Origin: Alphaproteobacteria bacterium
GTDB lineage: Bacteria > Pseudomonadota > Alphaproteobacteria > UBA828
Direction: 5' to 3'
DNA: 64,000 nucleotides
Assembly (NCBI GenBank): GCA_965214705.1
Contig: CBDCCI010000002.1
Location: 1,664,001 to 1,728,000 of the forward strand
In this document: positions 4,496 through 61,154 of the stretch, in pieces
Position numbering within the stretch: the stretch's first letter is position 1
Layout of the letters: every line of letters starts with the position of its first letter
Position numbers and translations under genes: made by a program
The notes under the pieces: generated by a model
The model's input: only the letters and a program-made list of their open reading frames with translations
Told to the model about the DNA's origin: nothing
The model's database searches: none

Positions 4496-4546
4496 GTTGA
4501 ACGGTAAGCGGTATCGAGGCCCCATACTCTCTTGAGTAACTTCTCT

Positions 4547-5971
4547 CTAAGCCGTTGACATAGAGGCATTTGTGTTTTTGTTGTCGTCGTCGATCTCGAC
4601 CAGTTGGAAGCCGAGCTTCTTGGCCTGTCGACGGAGCGAAGAGAACTTTCGGTCCAGGCGTCGGCTCTCGTAGACCTCCATCCCCTTCTCGGCATATTGC
4701 TGGCCGCGGGTCACCATCAGGTAGATCAGGCAGGCGAGTTCTCGGGCGGTGGCGACAACGGCTACGCTGGTGTCCATCCGGGCGAGGCGGCTGCGGTGCT
4801 TGGCGCCGATGAAGGTTTGGCTGGTGCGAGCGGTCATGGCCGCCATGCGCAGTGCCTGGCCAACGCGGTTGACCACCTTGGGCCCCCGGCCCGGCAACGG
4901 TTTGCCGCCGCTGATCCTGGTCCCAGGCGCCAGCCCCAGCCAGGAACTGAAGTGCTGTGCGGAGGGAAAGGCGGAGAAGTCAGGACCGATCTCGGCGGCG
5001 ATCACCAGGGCAGTGTTGACGCCGACGGTGGGGATTGCGGTGAGATCGACCCCCATCATCTTATGCAGCGCCATAGCCATGGCCTTATCCTGCCCGCGGA
5101 GCGCCCTGCCGCTGCTGCTTGGGGTCTCGTTCGACGCCGTGCCCGATGATCCGACACTGGGAGTGTCCTCGGGCGTACCCTCATCCGTCGGATCGTCCGG
5201 CGGGGTCAGGTGCTCAACCTCCGCCATGATCCGCGCCTCGCAGTCCGCGATCTGCTGCTCCAGAAAGTCGTAGCGCTGCATCGCCTGCTCAAGCGCGAAC
5301 AGGTGCTCCTCGCGCCAAGTGCCCTCCAGGCTCGCGGCAATCGTGTCGGCGCTGGCCTTGATCCGCCTGTCGCGAAGCGACGCCAGCCGCCCGGGGTCGC
5401 GCTCGCCGGCGATGATCGCCCGCAGGATGCGCTCACCCGTCTTCCCCATGATATCGCTGATCACCGAGTCCAGACGCACGTTCATCTGGGTCAGCGCCTT
5501 CTGCATATGCAGCACGCAGCGAGAGCGGTCCTCGATCAACTGCTTCGCCTGGCGCATGAAGGAGCGCAACGGGCAGATCGCGTCGCCCGGCCGGAAGGCG
5601 CCGCGCAGAAGGCCGTAGGACATCAGCTGCCAGATCCACTGGCAGTCCAGCACATCGCTCTTGCGCCCGCCGATCTGCTTCGTCATCCGGGGCGGCACAA
5701 GCATCACCTCGAAGCCGGCTCGATCCAGGACCTCGTAAACCGGGATCCAGTAGACCGAGGTCGACTCCATCGCCACCTTCGTCACACCGCACGACTTCAG
5801 CCACTCGGCCATCGCATCCAGGTCGCGCGTGAACGCGCCGAACTCCCTCACCGGTTCCTCGGCTCGCTCCGGATCCACCGCCACGAAGTGCCGGTCCTTG
5901 CCGATGTCGATCCCGGCGCAATTCGGGTGCACTACCTTGAGGCGCTGCCTCCTTCTCCGCTTGCGCGCCAT
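4547..5971 (-). CDS. IS110 DEDD recombinase/transposase
   Basis: GIDIG, AMESTSVYW, GRKSDVLDC, SWLGLAPGTRISGG (catalytic Ser region); ATG 5971 with GGGAGGG RBS. Confidence 0.93.
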   Translation of the reverse strand: MARKRRRRQRLKVVHPNCAGIDIGKDRHFVAVDPERAEEPVREFGAFTRDLDAMAEWLKSCGVTKVAMESTSVYWIPVYEVLDRAGFEVMLVPPRMTKQIGGRKSDVLDCQWIWQLMSYGLLRGAFRPGDAICPLRSFMRQAKQLIEDRSRCVLHMQKALTQMNVRLDSVISDIMGKTGERILRAIIAGERDPGRLASLRDRRIKASADTIAASLEGTWREEHLFALEQAMQRYDFLEQQIADCEARIMAEVEHLTPPDDPTDEGTPEDTPSVGSSGTASNETPSSSGRALRGQDKAMAMALHKMMGVDLTAIPTVGVNTALVIAAEIGPDFSAFPSAQHFSSWLGLAPGTRISGGKPLPGRGPKVVNRVGQALRMAAMTARTSQTFIGAKHRSRLARMDTSVAVVATARELACLIYLMVTRGQQYAEKGMEVYESRRLDRKFSSLRRQAKKLGFQLVEIDDDNKNTNASMSTA

Positions 5972-6256
5972 CGAGAGCCCTCCCAAACTCCGTTGACGTT
6001 GCGGGTGGGGAGGAACCGCGGCGAAGTCTCAATCTCTTGAACGAGGTCACGGGCGAACCCGCGCCATCAGTGACAGAAGCCGATCACGGTTCGGGCCAAG
6101 CTTCCAAACGGGTGCCCTCGCACGCCACTGAAGGGACGGCCTCGTCTGCCCTACCCGCTACCACTTCACGCTTCAACCGTCGAAGACTCAACCCCAGTCG
6201 AAGACTCTACCCCCAGTTACTTCAGCGACTGAGCCGCTGCGCCGCAGTGGTGGTGG
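5972..6256 (-). ncRNA. Putative bridge RNA in the IS110 left non-coding end
   Basis: Holds a 7-nt match to the target junction (6101-6107) followed in RNA sense by an 8-nt match to the donor junction (6033-6040); RNA boundaries unknown. Confidence 0.65.
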
Positions 6257-6323
6257 CTTCCAACGAATCTGATTTCGCGGCTGACTCTGGGCCTTGGCAA
6301 GGAGCCTGGGAGGAGGCATCGCG

Positions 6324-6959
6324 ATGAAGGATTTGGATCTGCTGCGTGGCCACGATTTCGGCGCCAACTCGGTTGAGGCGTCAGGGTCTGAGGAAGCCGC
6401 CCCATCTGCTGCAGCCCCATCTACGGCAACCGGTTCGGCTGATCACACTCGGCGGTCATGGTCCGCCGAGGAGAAGGCACGGATTGTCGCGGAGAGCGAC
6501 AGGCCGGGGGCCGTGCAGAAGGAGGTCGCGGCTCGTCACGGCATCACCGGGCAAACTCTTCGTCAGTGGCGCAGTCGGTCGCGCGCTCGTGGTCTCTCCG
6601 GCGCGAGCGGGGCAGCGGCTTCCGGGGACCGGCATGGCCGGCCTTGGCCGGATGATGTGAAGGCGCAGATCGTTGCGGAGAGCGAGCGCCCGGGAGCCAC
6701 GATATCGGCAGTTGCCCGCCGTCACGGCATCAGCGAGAAGACGCTGCGCACCTGGCGTCGTCAGGCGGCGAGTGGCGCTGGCGGTGATCGGCGGGGAGCC
6801 GAGTCTGCGCCCCCCTATATTCCGGTTGTGGTTGACGGGGCCGCGTCCGAGCAGACGGTCGCGATCGAGGCGCTGGGCGTCGTCGTTCGCCTTCCGGTGG
6901 AGAGCGCGGTCGATCGGATCGTGGCTGTGGCCTCGGGCCTGGGTCGTGCGTCGTCATGA
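6324..6959 (+). CDS. tnpA: IS66 TnpA with two tandem HTH domains
   Basis: RRSWSAEEKARIVAES..VAARHGI..LRQWR and RPWPDDVKAQIVAES..VARRHGI..LRTWR. Confidence 0.88.
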   Translation: MKDLDLLRGHDFGANSVEASGSEEAAPSAAAPSTATGSADHTRRSWSAEEKARIVAESDRPGAVQKEVAARHGITGQTLRQWRSRSRARGLSGASGAAASGDRHGRPWPDDVKAQIVAESERPGATISAVARRHGISEKTLRTWRRQAASGAGGDRRGAESAPPYIPVVVDGAASEQTVAIEALGVVVRLPVESAVDRIVAVASGLGRASS

Positions 6960-7306
6960 TCGCGGTTCCCTCGCTTCGCATCCTGTTGGCGACGCGTCCG
7001 GTTGATTTTCGTCGCGGCCACGACGCTCTTGCGGCGACGGCAGCGGGGGAGCTGGACCTCGATATCTATTCCGGAGTGATCGTGATCTTCCGCTCGCGCC
7101 GCGGGGACAGGCTCAAGCTTCTCACCTGGGACGGGACCGGTCTGGTGATGACCTACAAGCGTCTTGAGCAGGGCCGCTTCGCCTGGCCCGCGATTGAGGA
7201 CGGTGTGATTCGCCTTACGAAGGGCCAGTTCGAGGCTCTCTTCGAGGGTCTGGACTGGCGCCGGGTGAAGGCCCGCCCGGTTCGCCGCCCGCTGGCGGCG
7301 GAGTGA
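6956..7306 (+). CDS. tnpB: IS66 TnpB accessory protein
   Basis: PVDFRRGHDAL, IFRSRRGDRLKLL.WDG.G, KRLEQGRF.WP; ATGA overlap with tnpA. Confidence 0.95.
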   Translation: MIAVPSLRILLATRPVDFRRGHDALAATAAGELDLDIYSGVIVIFRSRRGDRLKLLTWDGTGLVMTYKRLEQGRFAWPAIEDGVIRLTKGQFEALFEGLDWRRVKARPVRRPLAAE

Positions 7307-7535: not shown

Positions 7536-9695
7536 CCCAAGTTGGCACTTTTGTCCTACCCATGTCCTTTATCGTGTTGATGTAACGCGATATTTCTCTC
7601 GGCCGGTTCCAACATGGCACTACATTTTGTTGGATTCTGTCAGTTCGGCAGGCGGGTCCTCGTGCGGTGGATGGCGGGTTCCACGCCCGCCGCCGAGGAG
7701 ATTGCGGCAACCTCAGCGGCCGGGCGCGTGTCCTGTCGATTGACGATCAAGGTGCCGTCGGTCTGGCGCAGGCGCGTGGTGATCCGCACCCAGGTCCGCA
7801 TGCTCTCGCGGATCGATGCCCAGCACTTGTGGATGTCCCGCGCGGCCAGCCGGGTACGGATCAGATGCACGGCGTGGTAGGCCAGCACGGCGATCAGCAG
7901 GTGGGCCGCGATGCGCCGGTCGAGCTGGTGCCAGATCGGGCGAAGGCCGAGTTCGGATTTCAGGCTTCGGAATGTCGCCTCGATATCCGTGATCCGCCAG
8001 TACGTCCGCAGGACCGTCTCGATATCCCAGTCGACGTGGCTGGTGCGCAGCACATAGGCGCCCGCGCCCTCATCGGCCTCGTCGTATCGCGGCCTGCGCT
8101 TGAAGCGCACGGCGGTGGCATTGGGGCCGGTGTCCGCCTTCTCGACCGTGATCTCGTAGTGCCTGGCGACGGCGGAGAAGCGCTGCTTGAGGCGGCCTAT
8201 GCTCTCCAGCACCTTGTCGTAGCGCTTGAGGCGGCCCTTGACCGCAAGGCCGCCGTGGAGCCTTTGCAGCGCCGCCTCGAAGCGGTTCCGCCTCAGGCCG
8301 ATGATCGCGTTCTCGGCCTTCTTCTTGCCCTCGCTGACGACGTAGAGCCGCGCCTCGCCGTCCTCGCTGGCAAGCCGCCAGGCCCGCACCTCGTGGCGCG
8401 CGCTGGTGATCAGCAGGGCCTCGGGTCCGCCCTCGGGCGGCGCAGGCCTGGCACCGCGGCTGACCGCGATCCAGTCGTAGCCCTGCTCGCCCAGCCAGAC
8501 GATGTTCTCCTCGGTGGCGATGCCCGCGTCCATGACCACCGTGGGCTTCGCCGCCGTGCCGCCGCATACCGCCTCGAGCCGGGCCAGCGCCTCGTGCAGC
8601 GTGCCCGGCTCGCTCACGTTGCCGGGCAGGATCTCGCAACTGCGCGGGAAGCCCGCACCGTCGAGCGCCAGCGCCAGCGTGATGAGGGGACAGTCGTCGC
8701 GCTTCTGCTTGGAGCGCCCGAACCTGGGAAGCTCGCCGTCGGTGTGGCCGTGGTAGTGGACGTTGGTGAGATCGTAGAAGGCGATCGTCTCGGGCAGGTC
8801 GAGCAGCGCGCGCTCACGGTTGAACAGTTCCCTCTGGATGGCGGCCCGGTGGCGCCAGAGCAGGTCGCCGATGCGGTAGAGCGTCTTGCGCCGCAGCGCC
8901 TTGCGGTCGCCCTCCAGGCCCAGGAGCTCGGCGGCCGCGCTGTCGTGGCGGAGCCAGCGGCTGGTATCACGCTCGCTGGCGGGATGGACCATCCTGGCGA
9001 CGATCAGCGCGCTGGCGATGCGTCCGTCGCGGCCCTTGATGTCGAGGCCGTGGAGGATTTCGGCGAAGCCAAGGTCGTCGAGGGCCTTGAGGCACAGGCG
9101 CTCGCAGCCGACGGTGCGCGGGTTCTCATGCTCCAGGGTATCGAGGTCGACGGTGGCGATCTCGGGCTTGCGCGCCTCTTCCTGCATCGCCTCGACGCGG
9201 AACCCCCTGGCCCTGAGCTTGGCGACGATGTCCTCGGCTGCGGCCTGCACGTCCGGGACGGCTTGGAGCAGCGGCGGGCGGCCGTGCAGCAGCGCCTCGG
9301 CGAGTTCGGCCACTTCGCGCCATTTCTCCTTCGGCACCGGATAGTCGGTGCCGAGGTTGAGGAGCGTGCGCTGCCTGACCTTGTCGCCGATGCGCTGGGA
9401 GAGCACGAGGCGATGGCTTCGGACGGGCTTGCCGTCGGTGGTGTGGGTCTTGGTTGCCCTGATGAACATGTCGCCCGTCGCGAGATTGTTGCGAGGGGCC
9501 AAGATTTGTCGGCTTGGGGTCTGGGGTCAAGGGAAAATCGTCAATACCTAACAACTCCTGGCACTACAACGCGCTTCCAGCGCCTCAATTACACATATAG
9601 TGGCATCATCTCGGAGCTACCCCAATATGTGGTACTTCGGTCCGCAAAATATGGGCAGACCGGCATTGAGCAACCGGAAAAAGTGCCAACTTGGG
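7536..9695 (-). mobile_element. IS1634 family element
   Basis: Perfect 17-bp TIR CCCAAGTTGGCACTTTT; CTAA duplicated at 7532-7535 and 9696-9699. Confidence 0.9.
7640..9469 (-). CDS. IS1634 DDE transposase
   Basis: FYDLTN, FGRSKQKRDDCP, VVMDAG, IEATFRSLKSELGLRPIWHQ, RIAAHLLIAVLAY; likely start MFIRATK. Confidence 0.9.
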   Translation of the reverse strand: MFIRATKTHTTDGKPVRSHRLVLSQRIGDKVRQRTLLNLGTDYPVPKEKWREVAELAEALLHGRPPLLQAVPDVQAAAEDIVAKLRARGFRVEAMQEEARKPEIATVDLDTLEHENPRTVGCERLCLKALDDLGFAEILHGLDIKGRDGRIASALIVARMVHPASERDTSRWLRHDSAAAELLGLEGDRKALRRKTLYRIGDLLWRHRAAIQRELFNRERALLDLPETIAFYDLTNVHYHGHTDGELPRFGRSKQKRDDCPLITLALALDGAGFPRSCEILPGNVSEPGTLHEALARLEAVCGGTAAKPTVVMDAGIATEENIVWLGEQGYDWIAVSRGARPAPPEGGPEALLITSARHEVRAWRLASEDGEARLYVVSEGKKKAENAIIGLRRNRFEAALQRLHGGLAVKGRLKRYDKVLESIGRLKQRFSAVARHYEITVEKADTGPNATAVRFKRRPRYDEADEGAGAYVLRTSHVDWDIETVLRTYWRITDIEATFRSLKSELGLRPIWHQLDRRIAAHLLIAVLAYHAVHLIRTRLAARDIHKCWASIRESMRTWVRITTRLRQTDGTLIVNRQDTRPAAEVAAISSAAGVEPAIHRTRTRLPN

Positions 9696-36195: not shown

Positions 36196-36894
36196 GCCGT
36201 GAAAGTTTCTTCGGGACGGGCACGAGTAGGGGAATTACGACGAGGCGTCGCGTTGTCGGCGTGAGGCCGCGCTCGCGGTGCTTGGAGACGCGGTCGGACT
36301 TCGGGCTGCCCTGGATTGTGGCCCGGTGCCGACCGTGCTCCGACCAGGTAATGCTTCAGGCGGTCGCGGCCATGGCAGTTGGGATACGACCGGGCTCGAG
36401 CAAGCCGTGCCGGCGGAGCATGCGGATCCAGCGCGGGGCATTTCGCCTGACCATGAGGGCTTCGTAGTCGGCTTCCGGATCGTAGTAAGGCTTGGCGTCG
36501 CGCAACACGACGTAGAGGACCCGCAGCATCTTGTGCGCGGTGGCGACGATGGCCCGCTTGTAACCGCGTCGGATCATGAGAGCCTTGTGGTAGCCGCGGA
36601 ACTGGCAGCCATGGGTTCGCGCCGCGCCATGAGCGCATTCGACGAGCACGGCGCGCAGGGTCTTGCTGCCCATGCGTGTGCGGGCGGCACGGCGCTTTCC
36701 GGCGCTTTGGCTGTTGCCGGGACAGAGACCGGCCCATGCGGCAAGCCGATCAGTGGAGCCGAAGGCGTCGAGGTCGGGGCCGATCTCGGCGAGGATGGCG
36801 CAGGCCGAGGCCCGGTCGATCCCGGGGATGGTCTGGAGAAGCAGGATGCGGTCCTCCCAGGGCACGAAGCCATCGTCGATGGCCCGGTCGAACC
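36196..36894 (-). pseudogene. IS110/IS1111-type element, 3' remnant (C-terminus plus non-coding tail)
   Basis: LQTIPGI, AWAGLCPGNSQSAGK, KRAIVATAHKMLR; stop at 36356; truncated by IS4. Confidence 0.85.
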
Positions 36895-49898: not shown

Positions 49899-51095
49899 AT
49901 GTCGGATGGTCCAGACACGACCGCGCTGACAGGCGCAAGTAGTAGCACGATTTATGTCGCGGTGGAGATCAGCCTCAAATCGTGGATCGTTGGCGTGCAT
50001 TGCCCGGATGCCTCGGGTGGCAGCATCAGCATCCACACACTGGCTGCTGCCGACACGGCGGGACTGTTGGATCTCGTCGGGTCGGTGCGGGAACGGGTGG
50101 CGAGGGAGCTCGGCGCCCGTCCTCGGGTGATGCTGACCTACGAGGCGGGCTACGAGGGGTTCTGGCTTGCCCGCGATATCGAGCGCCGTGACGCGGAGAT
50201 CGATATCTTCATGAACGATCCGGCGAGCCTGCGGGTGAACCGGCGCGCCAAGAAGAAAAAGACCGACCGTATCGACGCGAGGAGGATGGTTCGGGCTCTG
50301 AAGGCATGGGACCAAGGCGATTCGGAGGCCATGTCCTGGGTGCGCGTGCCCGATGTGGACCAGGAGGATGCCAAGCGCCTGCTGCGCGAGAGGGACACGC
50401 TGATCAGCGAGCGTACCCGCGTCAACAACCGGATCAAAGGGCTCTTGCAGTTGCACGGCATCTTCGATCTGGCGCCGCGCAAGCCGGACTTCCTCGAACG
50501 CCTCGCGACCGCGCGGACGGGCTATGGGGCGCCGTTGCCGCCGCGTGCGCGGGCAGAGATTGAGAGGGCGGTGGGGATGCTTCGCCTGGTTGAGGAGCAT
50601 ATCGAGATGATCGAGGCCGAGAAGAGGGCCCTGCTGAAGGCTGGCCGGAAAGCCCAGGACGCGACCAATCGTGACGGGACGGCGATGATCGCGGCGCTTA
50701 CGCGCATCCATGGCATCGGCCTCAATGACGCCACACTGCTGGCTGGCGAGGTGTTCTATCGGGACTTCCGCAATCGCCGGGAGTTGGGCAGCTGGGCCGG
50801 GTTGACGTCGGTGCCGTGGGCGAGCGGAGATGTCGACCACGATCTTGGCATCAGCAAGGCCGGCCCCTCGCATGTCAGGAAGCACATGATCCAGATGGCT
50901 TGGCGCTGGCTGAAGCTGCAACCGGAAAGCGCGATCACGAAGTGGTTCCACGCCTACGTCGCCAGGGATGCCGGTGGCGGGAGGGACCGGCGAGCGAGGA
51001 AGCGGGCGATCGTGGGGGTCGCGCGCAAGCTGCTGATCGCGCTGTGGCGCTATGCCACCCAAGGACTGGTGCCTGAGGGCGCCATCGTCTCCTGA
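49899..51095 (+). CDS. IS110-family recombinase
   Basis: YVAVEIS, YEAGYEGFW, KTDRIDA, WAGLTSVPWASG, AIVGVARKLLIALWR. Confidence 0.92.
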   Translation: MSDGPDTTALTGASSSTIYVAVEISLKSWIVGVHCPDASGGSISIHTLAAADTAGLLDLVGSVRERVARELGARPRVMLTYEAGYEGFWLARDIERRDAEIDIFMNDPASLRVNRRAKKKKTDRIDARRMVRALKAWDQGDSEAMSWVRVPDVDQEDAKRLLRERDTLISERTRVNNRIKGLLQLHGIFDLAPRKPDFLERLATARTGYGAPLPPRARAEIERAVGMLRLVEEHIEMIEAEKRALLKAGRKAQDATNRDGTAMIAALTRIHGIGLNDATLLAGEVFYRDFRNRRELGSWAGLTSVPWASGDVDHDLGISKAGPSHVRKHMIQMAWRWLKLQPESAITKWFHAYVARDAGGGRDRRARKRAIVGVARKLLIALWRYATQGLVPEGAIVS

Positions 51096-60521: not shown

Positions 60522-60982
60522 AACGGGCTCGTCGACGCGGCACGGTGAAGGAAGCGGGACCCCCGGATATGTCCCCGTCGCCAGGCTCTCGCTTCCGTCC
60601 GTGGTCAGCGCAGAGCGGCTGCCAACTTCATGCCTGGTGCAAGACGATTCCCGAGTGCCGATCTGGTGTGCGTGCTCGAACGCCAAGAGGCGATTCGGCA
60701 ACAGCCGCTAGCACGTGCATCATCGGGAACCGCGTCCCGGCGAGGGGATAGCGGTGGATCGCCACCTTCAGGCGCGGCTCTTTCCTCCTCTCGCTGCTGA
60801 TTGCCGGTGGGATGCAGCCGCGCCTATGCCGTCTGGAGCGCCATCGCCTCCTCGCGCGTGAAGCGGAACTCGGTGCCGTCCCGCCACATCCGGTGAAGTA
60901 CCACGCCGATGCGCCGGGCCAAGGCGACGGTCGCCCGCTTCTTGCCGCGGAGCTTCGCCAGACGCAGCGTCCAGGCCTTCAG
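60228..60982 (-). pseudogene. IS110/IS1111-type 3' remnant with long non-coding tail
   Basis: LKAW..RGKKRATVALARRIGVVLHRMWRDGTEF, stop 60824; end TTGACATCAACCGCCCCATTACGGA. Confidence 0.82.
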
Positions 60983-61154
60983 ATCCTATGGGGCCGACTC
61001 GGAGACCGGCACTACGGTGTCGTTCTCGCTAGACCTCATCAGGAGACAAGAGATGTCCCCAACGAACGCAGGGCGGATTTGTACTTCAGCCTTTGGCTAG
61101 GCCGGCCAGCGAGTTGCCTGAAATAGTGGACTTGCTCCCCGTGTCCTGATATGA

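What the first reader, a model, noticed from the sequence alone, without database searches (positions are those of the whole stretch)
4527..6258. IS110 whose non-coding end encodes readable target and donor guides (bridge RNA)
Seen, in element orientation: empty target CGTTGGA-AG-TATGGGG; circle junction TCAAGAG-AG-CCACCAC. The 285-nt leader contains TTGGAAG (6107-6101, 7 nt identical to left target + core), then TCAAGAGA (6040-6033, 8 nt identical to left donor + first core base). Established: IS621 bridge RNA has a target-binding loop followed by a donor-binding loop in this order. Inference: an intact RNA-guided recombinase with an AG core whose natural target lies beside the IS66 left TIR. 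Right-side guides were not clearly identified. The protein also has an acidic low-complexity insertion (PPDDPTDEG..).
Basis: partly seen in the sequence, partly recalled or inferred. Interest (0 to 1): 0.75.

Follow-up and report, generated by a model that had tools for sequence, protein, structure and literature searches.

The report
IS110 element with readable bridge RNA
This is an intact, recently active jumping gene of the IS110 family whose leader encodes a guide RNA that spells out both its insertion site and its own end, as in known bridge-RNA systems but with the guide segments in a different position.

Summary
Window 4529-6256 (minus strand) is a 1,728-bp IS110-family element, one of 10 identical copies in this genome. 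It sits 23 bp inside an IS66 left end.

- **Guide matches:** the leader holds UUGGAAG (6107-6101), equal to the left flank plus the AG core, and UCAAGAG (6040-6034), equal to the element's right end plus core. The chance of both is about 6e-4.
- **Covariation:** in homologues, the first 7-mer equals the left flank in 40 of 50 testable loci, with 19 different guides. The second equals the right end in 40 of 49.
- **Structure:** a consensus structure supported by covariation puts both 7-mers in internal loops.

- The core is the last AG of CTCAAGAG. This copy carries one extra AG (4528-4527).
- The target is (C/G)TTGGAAG anywhere, not IS66.
- Both guides lie 3' of each loop's distal hairpin. That is the reverse of IS621 and matches the order reported for IS1111.
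- A weak 4-nt right-target guide is detectable across the family, but this element's own ten sites do not follow it. No right-donor guide was found.
- The acidic stretch is an unconserved linker.

The closest characterised relative appears to be ISPpu9. This is a new member of a known kind.

The parts
6257..6258 (-). Left copy of the AG core (shared between target and element)
   Evidence: All 10 genomic copies have AG here, preceded by TTGGA (one has TTAGA). The core is AG in all homologues.
5972..6256 (-). Left end / 285-nt leader upstream of the recombinase gene; encodes the bridge RNA
   Evidence: Alignable across 30 homologous leaders (A1). Copies are identical from CCACCACC onward.
6237..6247 (-). 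Small palindrome CTGCG-G-CGCAG close to the left tip (right-donor region)
   Evidence: Read in the sequence. Palindromes at the same place in relatives were seen by eye in A1 and not tested statistically. ISPpu9's A box is described as holding a palindrome (PMC12288879).
6215..6221 (-). Left arm of a subterminal inverted repeat, AGTAACT
   Evidence: Pairs with AGTTACT at 4541-4535. The repeat changes together at both ends in relatives: AGTAAC/GAGTAAC, CAAAC, GGAAC, GAAAC.
6179..6213 (-). Imperfect tandem repeat, GGGGTAGAGTCTTCGAC then T then GGGGTTGAGTCTTCGAC; one unit (18 nt) is an insertion found only in this element
   Evidence: 18 columns are gapped in all 29 other leaders of A1. Coordinates.
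6005..6154 (-). Structured bridge-RNA core: closing helix A (6154-6149 / 6010-6005) around two arms
   Evidence: RNAalifold consensus. 30 pairs, 98.2% of cells paired against 40-43% when slid, and 16 pairs with changes on both sides. Window coordinates.
6130..6134 (-). Candidate right-target guide CCUU(C), 5' strand of the first loop
   Evidence: Across 26 element units, the 4 nt here match the complement of the first 4 right-flank bases at 0.48 (0.56 after stripping extra AG) against 0.29 in permutations, 0 of 20,000. This element's own 10 sites show 0.35, which is no signal.
6109..6127 (-). Distal hairpin C of the target-binding arm
   Evidence: 7 pairs with invariant sequence; no pair changes on both sides, 3 vary on one side only, so covariation neither supports nor contradicts it.
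6101..6107 (-). Left target guide UUGGAAG (5 nt of target plus the AG core), 3' strand of the first internal loop
   Evidence: Identical to the left flank of 9 of 10 copies. The homologous column equals the flank in 40 of 50 testable loci, with 19 distinct guides. Column-to-flank identity is 0.93-1.00.
6094..6097 (-). 3' strand of helix B (GGCC), pairing with 6141-6138 and closing the target-binding loop
   Evidence: 100% of cells paired, with 3 sequences changed on both sides (GACC/GGUC).
6048..6063 (-). Distal hairpin E of the donor-binding arm
   Evidence: 6 pairs, 5 with changes on both sides.
6034..6040 (-). Left donor guide UCAAGAG (5 nt of the right end plus the AG core), 3' strand of the second loop, which is closed by helix D (6092-6086 / 6019-6013)
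   Evidence: Equals the last 7 nt of the element. The homologous column equals the right end in 40 of 49 loci. Six variants, including TCGGGAG, ATAAGAG and ATGAAAG, change together with the end.
4547..5971 (-). Recombinase gene, 474 aa, ATG at 5971 (conserved start MARK...), stop TAG at 4549-4547
   Evidence: Pfam DEDD_Tnp_IS110 plus Transposase_20. NCBIfam NF033542, 'IS110 family RNA-guided transposase', 280 bits against a cut-off of 140. D22, E69, D106, D109 and S354 are invariant in 10 homologues. Aligns to IS621 transposase 8wt6.
4535..4541 (-). Right arm of the subterminal inverted repeat, AGTTACT
4529..4535 (-). Left donor TCAAG plus the right copy of the AG core (4530-4529); true right end of the element
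   Evidence: All 10 copies end here, and what follows differs in each.
4527..4528 (-). Extra AG at the right junction, present only in this copy
   Evidence: The empty IS66 paralogue and a public contig show a single AG between GGA and TATGGGG. Similar extra AG or AGAG is seen at right junctions of relatives L013, L062, L065, L039 and L056.
4504..4526 (+). First 23 bp of the interrupted IS66 element (left terminal repeat GTAAGCGGTATCG...); IS66 continues at 6259 with tnpA (6294-6959) and tnpB (6956-7306)
   Evidence: Paralogue L092 is colinear across the joint. Pfam HTH_Tnp_1 and TnpB_IS66.

Best explanation
Window 4529-6256 is an intact, recently active insertion sequence of the IS110 group. 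It belongs to a lineage that recombines at an AG dinucleotide, as the Pseudomonas element ISPpu9 does.

**The RNA.** The 285-nt leader is transcribed with or ahead of the recombinase gene. It folds into a roughly 150-nt core (6154-6005) in which one closing helix holds two arms. Each arm is a helix, an internal loop and a distal hairpin.

[quoted passage not shown] The DEDD/serine recombinase bound to this RNA then exchanges strands at AG. The result is LT-AG-element-AG-RT.

**Right side.** Reading of the right side is weak. A 4-nt stretch on the 5' strand of the first loop tends to complement the right flank in relatives, but this element's own ten sites do not follow it. No right-donor guide is detectable.

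**Shown here:** element limits, copy number, guide-flank covariation, RNA structure covariation and conserved catalytic residues.

**Inferred:** that the RNA is made and bound, the pairing itself and the chemistry. These rest on analogy with IS621, ISEc21 and ISPpu9.
For: - **Copies and flanks.** There are 10 copies at 100% identity in different flanks. The left flank is always (C/G)TT(G/A)GAAG, and the right flank is unrelated between copies.
- **The 7-mer belongs to the target.** An uninterrupted IS66 paralogue and a public contig (X17 record 4) carry GGAAG or TTGGAAG at the empty site.
- **Guide covariation.** Of 53 rows, the LTG column equals the left flank with 0 mismatches in 40 of 50 testable rows, 1 mismatch in 3 and 2 mismatches in 1. 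There are 19 distinct guides. 16 of 20 distinct pairs match in all 5 non-core bases, and 0 of 20,000 permutations reach that (maximum 7). The LDG column equals the right end in 40 of 49 rows, with 6 variants.
- **Unbiased scan.** A column-by-flank scan picks exactly these columns (identity 0.93-1.00).
- **Second family in the same genome.** L011 has guide TGTTAAG and flank CTGTTAAG.
- **Structure.** 30 pairs, 98.2% paired against 40-43% when slid, 16 pairs with double changes, and 0 of 500 shuffles reach the observed values. Many G-U pairs fit the sense strand only.
- **Protein.** NF033542 at 280 bits, Pfam domains, DEDD and Ser invariant, alignment to IS621 transposase.
- **Guide DNA is itself hit.** Relatives inserted into another copy's guide-coding DNA (L017, L042, L046, L039). 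L010 has a 136-nt duplication joined exactly at TTGGA-AG.
- **Differences at guide positions.** In a 94%-alike contig from a public RNA library, differences hit 3 of 7 LTG positions (6103, 6106, 6107), 3 of the 5 right-guide positions (6131-6133) and the adjacent base 6135. Overall there are 42 differences in 718 nt.
- **Published precedent.** IS621 (PMC11208160, PMC11208158), ISEc21 (PMC11187229) and ISPpu9, which recombines at AG and forms minicircles (PMC12288879). Passages and named sections were read.
Against: - No RNA evidence exists for this element itself. The RNA-library contigs come from relatives, may be DNA, and show no ends or strand.
- The single-sequence fold of the whole leader is no better than shuffles (z +1.37; 194 of 200 shuffles fold as well).
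- In the single-sequence ensemble the guides are partly paired. Unpaired probabilities are 0.05-0.66 for the LTG and 0.12-0.94 for the LDG. GAAG of the LTG pairs with CUUC of the opposite loop strand. On this sequence the consensus structure costs -36 kcal/mol against an MFE of -55.
- No Rfam family matches.
- No sigma-70-like promoter was found in the leader or across a natural RE-LE joint of a relative.
- No right-donor guide was found.
- This element's ten right flanks do not fit the candidate right-target guide (0.35 against 0.29 by chance).
- 6 of 50 rows have 4 or more mismatches. All six have a disrupted or non-homologous upstream alignment (L019, L022, L031, L033, L034, L035).
- 342 TTGGAAG sites exist in the genome but only 10 copies, so 7 nt cannot be the whole story of site choice.
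Confidence: 0.87

Rival explanations
1. The conserved left-flank 7-mer is simply the element's own terminal sequence. The element would start at TTGGAAG, so the 'guide-flank match' is an internal direct repeat with no targeting role.
For: All 10 copies share it, as a terminal sequence would. The leader repeats it 150 nt inside.
Against: The empty IS66 paralogue already contains GGTGGAAG joined to TATGGGG, and a public contig contains TTGGAAG joined to TATGGGGG. One copy has TTAGAAG, and the base before the 7-mer varies between C and G. In Pseudomonas relatives the left flank is part of the host REP sequence.
Confidence: 0.02
2. The leader is only a translational-control 5' UTR, as shown for ISPpu9, where a structured UTR blocks translation and an antisense RNA relieves it. 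Site choice is made by the protein reading DNA motifs, and the RNA is not a guide.
For: ISPpu9's tnp mRNA has a long structured 5' UTR that inhibits translation (PMC12288879, passages). The Shine-Dalgarno GGGAGGG (5984-5978) lies just 3' of the structure. There is no direct RNA evidence here.
Against: 19 different 7-mers track 19 different flanks while the protein stays 54-94% identical. A protein reading DNA cannot easily explain this. The same authors regard the ISPpu9 UTR as containing the bridge RNA. Guide function has been shown experimentally for IS621 and ISEc21. A dual role, guide plus UTR control, is fully compatible with the best explanation.
Confidence: 0.05
3. The two matches are chance, found because the reader could choose among many k-mers, strands and flanks.
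For: 7-mers are short. Each alone occurs in 2-3% of simulated leaders.
Against: The joint probability is about 6e-4. The same alignment columns match in 40 of 50 and 40 of 49 homologous loci.
Confidence: 0.01
4. The copy in the window is a dead relic. The guides are readable but the element no longer moves.
For: This copy has an aberrant extra AG at its right junction. No circle or tandem joint is in the assembly.
Against: It is identical to nine other copies over 1,728 bp with an open 474-aa frame and intact catalytic residues. That points to very recent movement of the family. The extra AG lies outside the element.
Confidence: 0.05

Closest known systems
IS621 (E. coli) bridge RNA / bridge recombinase (Durrant 2024, PMC11208160; Hiraizumi 2024, PMC11208158)
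   Same: DEDD RuvC-like domain plus a Tnp domain with catalytic Ser. The non-coding RNA lies in the long left end upstream of the gene. The target-binding arm comes first and the donor-binding arm second, each an internal loop with a distal hairpin. The guides include the 2-nt core at their 3' end.
   Different: Protein similarity is weak (E 6.5e-10, two short stretches), and this protein is 474 aa against 326-328 aa. Read along the RNA, the core is AG rather than CT. The bottom-strand guides are 7 nt and lie 3' of the distal hairpin, whereas in IS621 they are 8-9 nt on the 5' side. The right-target guide is weak, and no right-donor guide was found. No junction promoter was detected.
ISPpu9 of Pseudomonas putida KT2440 (PMC12288879)
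   Same: IS110 group, with an AG dinucleotide at both ends where recombination occurs. It has a long structured leader said to include the bridge RNA, a palindrome near the left tip and a short conserved right end. Pseudomonas homologues fetched here (L073, L086, L088; 54-58% identical to the window's protein) insert in REP-like sequences at ...G(T/G)(A/G)GGAG|CGGGC and have GCCC....GGGC near the left tip. This matches the paper's description.
   Different: I could not confirm that any fetched locus is ISPpu9 itself, because no record carries the name. This element has no REP target, no ssr9-like downstream module in its 18-bp right end, and a different guide. The paper, in the passages and section I read, does not map the guide loops.
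IS1111-type seekRNAs (ISEc11, ISPa11, ISKpn4; Siddiquee 2024, PMC11187229)
   Same: The order of the two target matches is the same. The segment complementary to the top strand lies 5' of the segment complementary to the bottom strand. Here the candidate right-target guide is 5' and the LTG is 3'. A covarying subterminal inverted repeat is present.
   Different: In IS1111 elements the non-coding region lies downstream of the transposase gene. Here it lies upstream, as in the IS110 type. The inverted repeat here is short (5-7 bp) and placed asymmetrically, 4-5 bp from the right core but 35 bp from the left core.
ISPpu10 (P. putida; bioRxiv 10.64898/2026.03.19.712850)
   Same: An IS110-group element with a bridge RNA. 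It inserts in REP, and a target-encoded stem-loop adds specificity beyond base pairing (abstract and section 6 read).
   Different: It is described with a CT core, IS621 pairing logic and a junction promoter. No relationship to the window's element was tested here.

Membership tests
IS110-family RNA-guided (bridge) recombinase elements | DEDD RuvC-like N-terminal domain plus a C-terminal Tnp domain with catalytic serine | tested here: met
   PF01548 (E 4.5e-23) and PF02371 (E 3.2e-12). NF033542 at 280 bits against a cut-off of 140. D22, E69, D106, D109 and S354 are invariant in 10 homologues. S354 aligns with the ESGS serine of IS621. The residue labels for IS621 are recalled, not taken from a call.
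IS110-family RNA-guided (bridge) recombinase elements | No terminal inverted repeats; a 2-nt core present at both junctions, one copy from the target | tested here: met
   AG precedes CCACCACC and ends CTCAAGAG in all 10 copies. The empty paralogue has a single AG.
IS110-family RNA-guided (bridge) recombinase elements | Structured non-coding RNA in the long non-coding end, with two internal loops | tested here: met
   Consensus structure with 16 covarying pairs, 98.2% paired against 40-43% when slid. That it is actually transcribed was not shown.
IS110-family RNA-guided (bridge) recombinase elements | First loop matches the target and second loop matches the donor, and both covary across relatives | tested here: met
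   LTG in 40 of 50 loci and LDG in 40 of 49 loci with 0 mismatches; 19 and 6 variants respectively. Column scan.
IS110-family RNA-guided (bridge) recombinase elements | Second-strand guides (right target and right donor) | tested here: inconclusive
   The right-target candidate is significant across 26 units (0 of 20,000 permutations) but absent in this element's own sites. No right-donor signal was found.
IS110-family RNA-guided (bridge) recombinase elements | Circular intermediate with the ends abutted at the core; junction promoter | tested here: inconclusive
   No RE-LE joint in this assembly. Relatives carry natural head-to-tail joints, GTTACTCAAGAG|CCTCCACC. No sigma-70 consensus was found in the leader or across such a joint. 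A circle can only be shown at the bench.
IS621-type arrangement (IS110 group sensu Durrant / ISEc21) | [quoted passage not shown] | tested here: not met
   Both bottom-strand guides lie between the distal hairpin and the 3' strand of the closing helix. The core read along the RNA is AG. The IS621 and ISEc21 rule comes from passages read.
IS1111 group | Non-coding region and RNA downstream of the transposase gene; subterminal inverted repeats of 7-17 bp | tested here: not met
   The right end is only 18 bp after the stop codon, and the RNA region is upstream. An inverted repeat exists but is 5-7 bp and asymmetric.
ISPpu9-like lineage | AG dinucleotide at both ends as the crossover point; conserved left (A) and right (B) boxes; long structured leader | tested here: met
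   AG core. Left and right ends are conserved across the 54-94% identical homologues. Structured leader. Identity to ISPpu9 itself was not testable, because no named sequence was on hand.

The most novel reading that the evidence does not exclude
This lineage (ISPpu9-like, spread through Alpha- and Gammaproteobacteria) may have a third bridge-RNA layout. The RNA is upstream of the gene, as in IS621. However, the main 7-nt guides sit on the 3' strands of both loops, and the top-strand guide sits 5' of the bottom-strand guide, as in IS1111 seekRNAs.

Together with an AG core, which is the reverse complement of the canonical CT, this suggests one simple account. The RNA-plus-gene cargo may be inverted relative to the recombination site compared with IS621.

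The layout also seems to run on essentially one-sided recognition (5 nt plus core), which would explain three things seen here: scattered targets, insertion into the guide-coding DNA of sister copies, and AG-repeat slippage at the right junction.
Probability: 0.4. Interest if true: 0.6.

Novelty: new member of a known kind. Interest (0 to 1): 0.42.

Why it matters
It gives a clean natural example of bridge-RNA programming outside the IS621 clade. One protein family (54-94% identical) carries at least 19 different target guides and 6 donor guides, each matching its own flank or end. This can serve as a ready-made reprogramming table for this lineage.

If the guide placement and near one-sided recognition are confirmed, that would show the bridge architecture tolerates a swapped strand order with an upstream RNA. 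It would also tie the ISPpu9 'AG' elements to a concrete RNA model.

For the genome itself the finding is ordinary. It is one of 64 IS110-family matches in an IS-rich chromosome.

Tried and rejected
**Rfam.** No family matched. The only hit was a sub-threshold msiK match on the other strand inside the gene, taken as chance.

**Whole-leader single-sequence fold.** No better than shuffles, so it cannot place the guides. It was replaced by the consensus fold.

**Right-donor guide.** Three searches all gave nothing above background: a column-by-position scan, a k-mer scan on both strands and mutual information for RD positions 1-8. By eye I tried the 4 nt before CAC-UGAUGG on the 5' strand of loop 2 (by symmetry with loop 1), the stretch after the LDG, and handshake-like matches after the LTG. 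None covaried consistently.

**Comparison with another IS110 family in this genome.** The roughly 19-copy family, one copy of which lies in the window, was to serve as an internal control for guide order. Its copies sit in an identical larger repeat, so the left limit could not be set. Abandoned.

**Promoters.** No sigma-70 consensus in the leader or across a relative's natural RE-LE joint. The scan covers one promoter type only, so this proves little.

**RNA libraries.** Four metatranscriptome runs hold 90-99%-alike contigs of relatives over parts of the gene and leader. Contigs cannot show transcription, ends or strand, and DNA may be present. Parts without cover mean nothing. I do not count this as expression evidence.

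**Other dead ends.**
- The ISPpu10 preprint was checked for sequence-level comparison. The sequences are in figures that are not held.
Durrant's Supplementary Data and Table 5, and the ISPpu9 paper's Tables S3-S7, may already list this lineage's RNA or ends.
- Whether the guide layout is in print was checked only through searches and the passages read.
Full report
**What is there.** Read on the minus strand, window 6258-4527 is AG|CCACCACC...CTCAAGAG|AG. A 474-aa open frame (ATG 5971, stop 4547) carries Pfam DEDD_Tnp_IS110 and Transposase_20. It matches NCBIfam NF033542, 'IS110 family RNA-guided transposase', over its full length at 280 bits against a cut-off of 140. It also aligns in two stretches with the solved IS621 transposase. 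In an alignment of ten homologues, D22, E69, D106, D109 and S354 are invariant. The acidic 'PPDDPTDEG...' stretch lies in a 45-residue linker that differs in every relative and is 15 residues shorter in the gammaproteobacterial members. It is an unconserved linker, not a feature of note.

**Limits and target.** The genome (7.9 Mb, 66.8% G+C) holds ten copies at 100% identity.
- Their left flanks all end in (C/G)TTGGA-AG (once TTAGA-AG).
- Their right flanks begin AG, AA, AT, TT, CC, CG, GG, TA, CC and TG and are otherwise unrelated.
- The element is therefore CCACC...CTCAAG plus one AG core, 1,728 bp.
- The 7-mer belongs to the target and not to the element. An uninterrupted IS66 paralogue reads CGGTGGA-AG-TATGGGG, and a public contig joins TTGGAAG directly to TATGGGGG.
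- Both empty sites have a single AG, so the window's copy carries one extra AG at its right junction (4528-4527).
The general donor joint is ACTCAAG-AG-CCACCAC.
- Only this one copy lies in IS66, 23 bp inside the left terminal repeat (4504-4526). The target is the short motif, of which the genome has 342 instances.

**The two matches.** UUGGAAG (6107-6101) and UCAAGAG (6040-6034) are in the leader as stated. Their joint chance is about 6e-4. The decisive test was comparative.
- A protein-guided scan of one genome per species returned 78 loci, 54-94% identical, from Alpha- and Gammaproteobacteria and other phyla.
- The leaders align throughout.
- The column homologous to UUGGAAG differs from family to family and equals that family's own left flank with 0 mismatches in 40 of 50 testable rows. 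Three rows have one mismatch and one has two.
- Six rows have four or more mismatches. All six have an upstream region that is nested, tandem or truncated, so the alignment there is not homologous.
- There are 19 different guides. Sixteen of 20 distinct guide-flank pairs match at all five non-core bases, which no permutation out of 20,000 reached.
- The column homologous to UCAAGAG equals the last 7 nt of the element in 40 of 49 rows. Six variants change in step with the end: TCAAGAG, TCGAGAG, TCGGGAG, ATGAGAG, ATAAGAG and ATGAAAG.
- A blind column-by-flank scan picks out these columns and no others.
- A second, diverged family in the same genome (L011) has guide TGTTAAG and flank CTGTTAAG.

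**Structure.** The single-sequence fold of the leader is uninformative (z +1.37). It pairs part of the target guide: GAAG pairs with CUUC across the loop.

The consensus fold of 30 leaders is different and well supported.
- A closing helix A holds two arms: B with hairpin C, and D with hairpin E.
- There are 30 pairs in all, with 98.2% of cells paired against 40-43% when the partners are slid by one to three columns.
- 16 pairs show changes on both sides, and no shuffle out of 500 reaches the observed values.
- Frequent G-U pairs fit the sense strand only.
- In this structure both 7-mers are unpaired, each lying between the distal hairpin and the 3' strand of its arm's closing helix.

**How this differs from IS621.** In IS621 and ISEc21, the guide that pairs with the bottom strand is on the 5' side of the loop and the top-strand guide is on the 3' side. 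The core read along the RNA is CT (PMC11208160 and PMC11208158, passages; PMC11187229, section 12). Here the bottom-strand guides are on the 3' side and the core reads AG.

Siddiquee et al. report the reverse order (top-strand match 5' of bottom-strand match) for IS1111-type seekRNAs, whose RNA lies downstream of the gene. This lineage therefore combines an upstream RNA with the IS1111-type order. A single inversion of the cargo relative to the recombination site would explain both the AG core and the swapped strands. That is inference, not shown.

**Right side.** On the 5' strand of the first loop, the four bases before a conserved CA (CCUU, 6134-6131, followed by the C of that CA at 6130) are hypervariable in the family.
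- Across 26 element units they complement the first four right-flank bases at 0.48, or 0.56 after removing extra AG repeats. Permutations give 0.29, and 0 of 20,000 reach the observed value. The blind scan also shows this anti-diagonal.
- The units are not fully independent, and the effect is partial.
- For this element's own ten sites the match is 0.35, which is no signal.
- No right-donor guide could be found by any of three scans.
- Site choice by this element therefore seems to rest on 5 nt plus the core on one side.

**Side observations that fit an RNA-defined target.**
- In a relative's genome, elements have inserted into the guide-coding DNA of sister copies and form head-to-tail arrays.
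- One copy in this genome (L010) has a 136-nt duplication joined exactly at TTGGA-AG.
- Right junctions with one or two extra AG recur.
- A 5-7-bp inverted repeat, AGTAACT at 6221-6215 and AGTTACT at 4541-4535, changes in step at both ends in relatives.

**Closest known.** ISPpu9 of P. putida is an IS110-group element shown to recombine at an AG dinucleotide. It forms minicircles, inserts in REP sequences and has a long structured leader said to contain the bridge RNA (PMC12288879; passages and section 14 read). Pseudomonas homologues fetched here share those features. I could not confirm a named ISPpu9 sequence. In what I read, that paper does not map the guides.

**What is missing.**
- There is no direct evidence that the RNA is made. 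Contigs from RNA libraries belong to relatives and cannot show transcription.
- No promoter was recognised.
- No circle joint is in the assembly.

**Verdict.** It is a new, well-documented member of the known bridge-RNA IS110 kind. A layout variant within it deserves a bench test.

Noticed in passing
window 4527-4528; L013, L062, L065, L039, L056 right junctions: A variable number of AG dinucleotides lies between the element's right end and the target (one extra here; one or two extra in relatives, even at the same kind of target). The donor end and the RNA after the donor guide both contain AG repeats (AAGAG-A here, GAGAGAG in the gammaproteobacterial members). Register slippage during recombination is therefore a possible cause.
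   Followed up: partly
L036-L058 (one public genome), L017; own genome L010 (G000:C3:1872741-1874606): Relatives have inserted into the guide-coding DNA of sister copies (flank gcacccgaTGTTAAG|...|cctggtccgaacc) and form head-to-tail arrays of up to three copies. In this genome, L010 has a 136-nt leader duplication whose joint is exactly TTGGA-AG|CGGCTCAG.
   Followed up: partly
window 6215-6221 and 4535-4541: A subterminal inverted repeat, AGTAACT / AGTTACT, lies 35 bp from the left core and 4 bp from the right core. It covaries in relatives (CAAAC, GGAAC, GAAAC). Whether it acts in DNA or in RNA is unknown.
   Followed up: partly
window 6179-6213: An imperfect tandem repeat in the leader (GGGGTAGAGTCTTCGAC / GGGGTTGAGTCTTCGAC); one 18-nt unit is absent from all 29 other aligned leaders. 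It lies upstream of the structured core.
   Followed up: no
window about 49995-51065 (+); partial matches at about 36488-36889 (-) and 60872-60991 (-): Another IS110-family transposase gene, a member of a roughly 19-copy repeat in this genome. In the window it ends ...GAAAATACAGG directly against an IS66-type terminal repeat (GTAAGCGGTATCGGG...). The genome has 64 matches to the IS110 family model in all.
   Followed up: partly
window 7640-9502 (-): A 620-aa DDE_Tnp_1 (IS4-like) transposase frame lies just after IS66 tnpB. It probably interrupts the IS66 element a second time, which would make this a nest of insertion sequences.
   Followed up: no
L026 and L064 flanks: The left and right flanks of these two relatives repeat about 9-10 nt (…GATGTCATGAG|element|AGATGTCATG…). 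This is unlike the other insertions and is unexplained.
   Followed up: no
one search hits H23-H30: A 43.5%-identical IS110-family transposase recurs on plasmids of Citrobacter, Klebsiella, Enterobacter and Serratia from clinical sources. Its leader was not examined.
   Followed up: no
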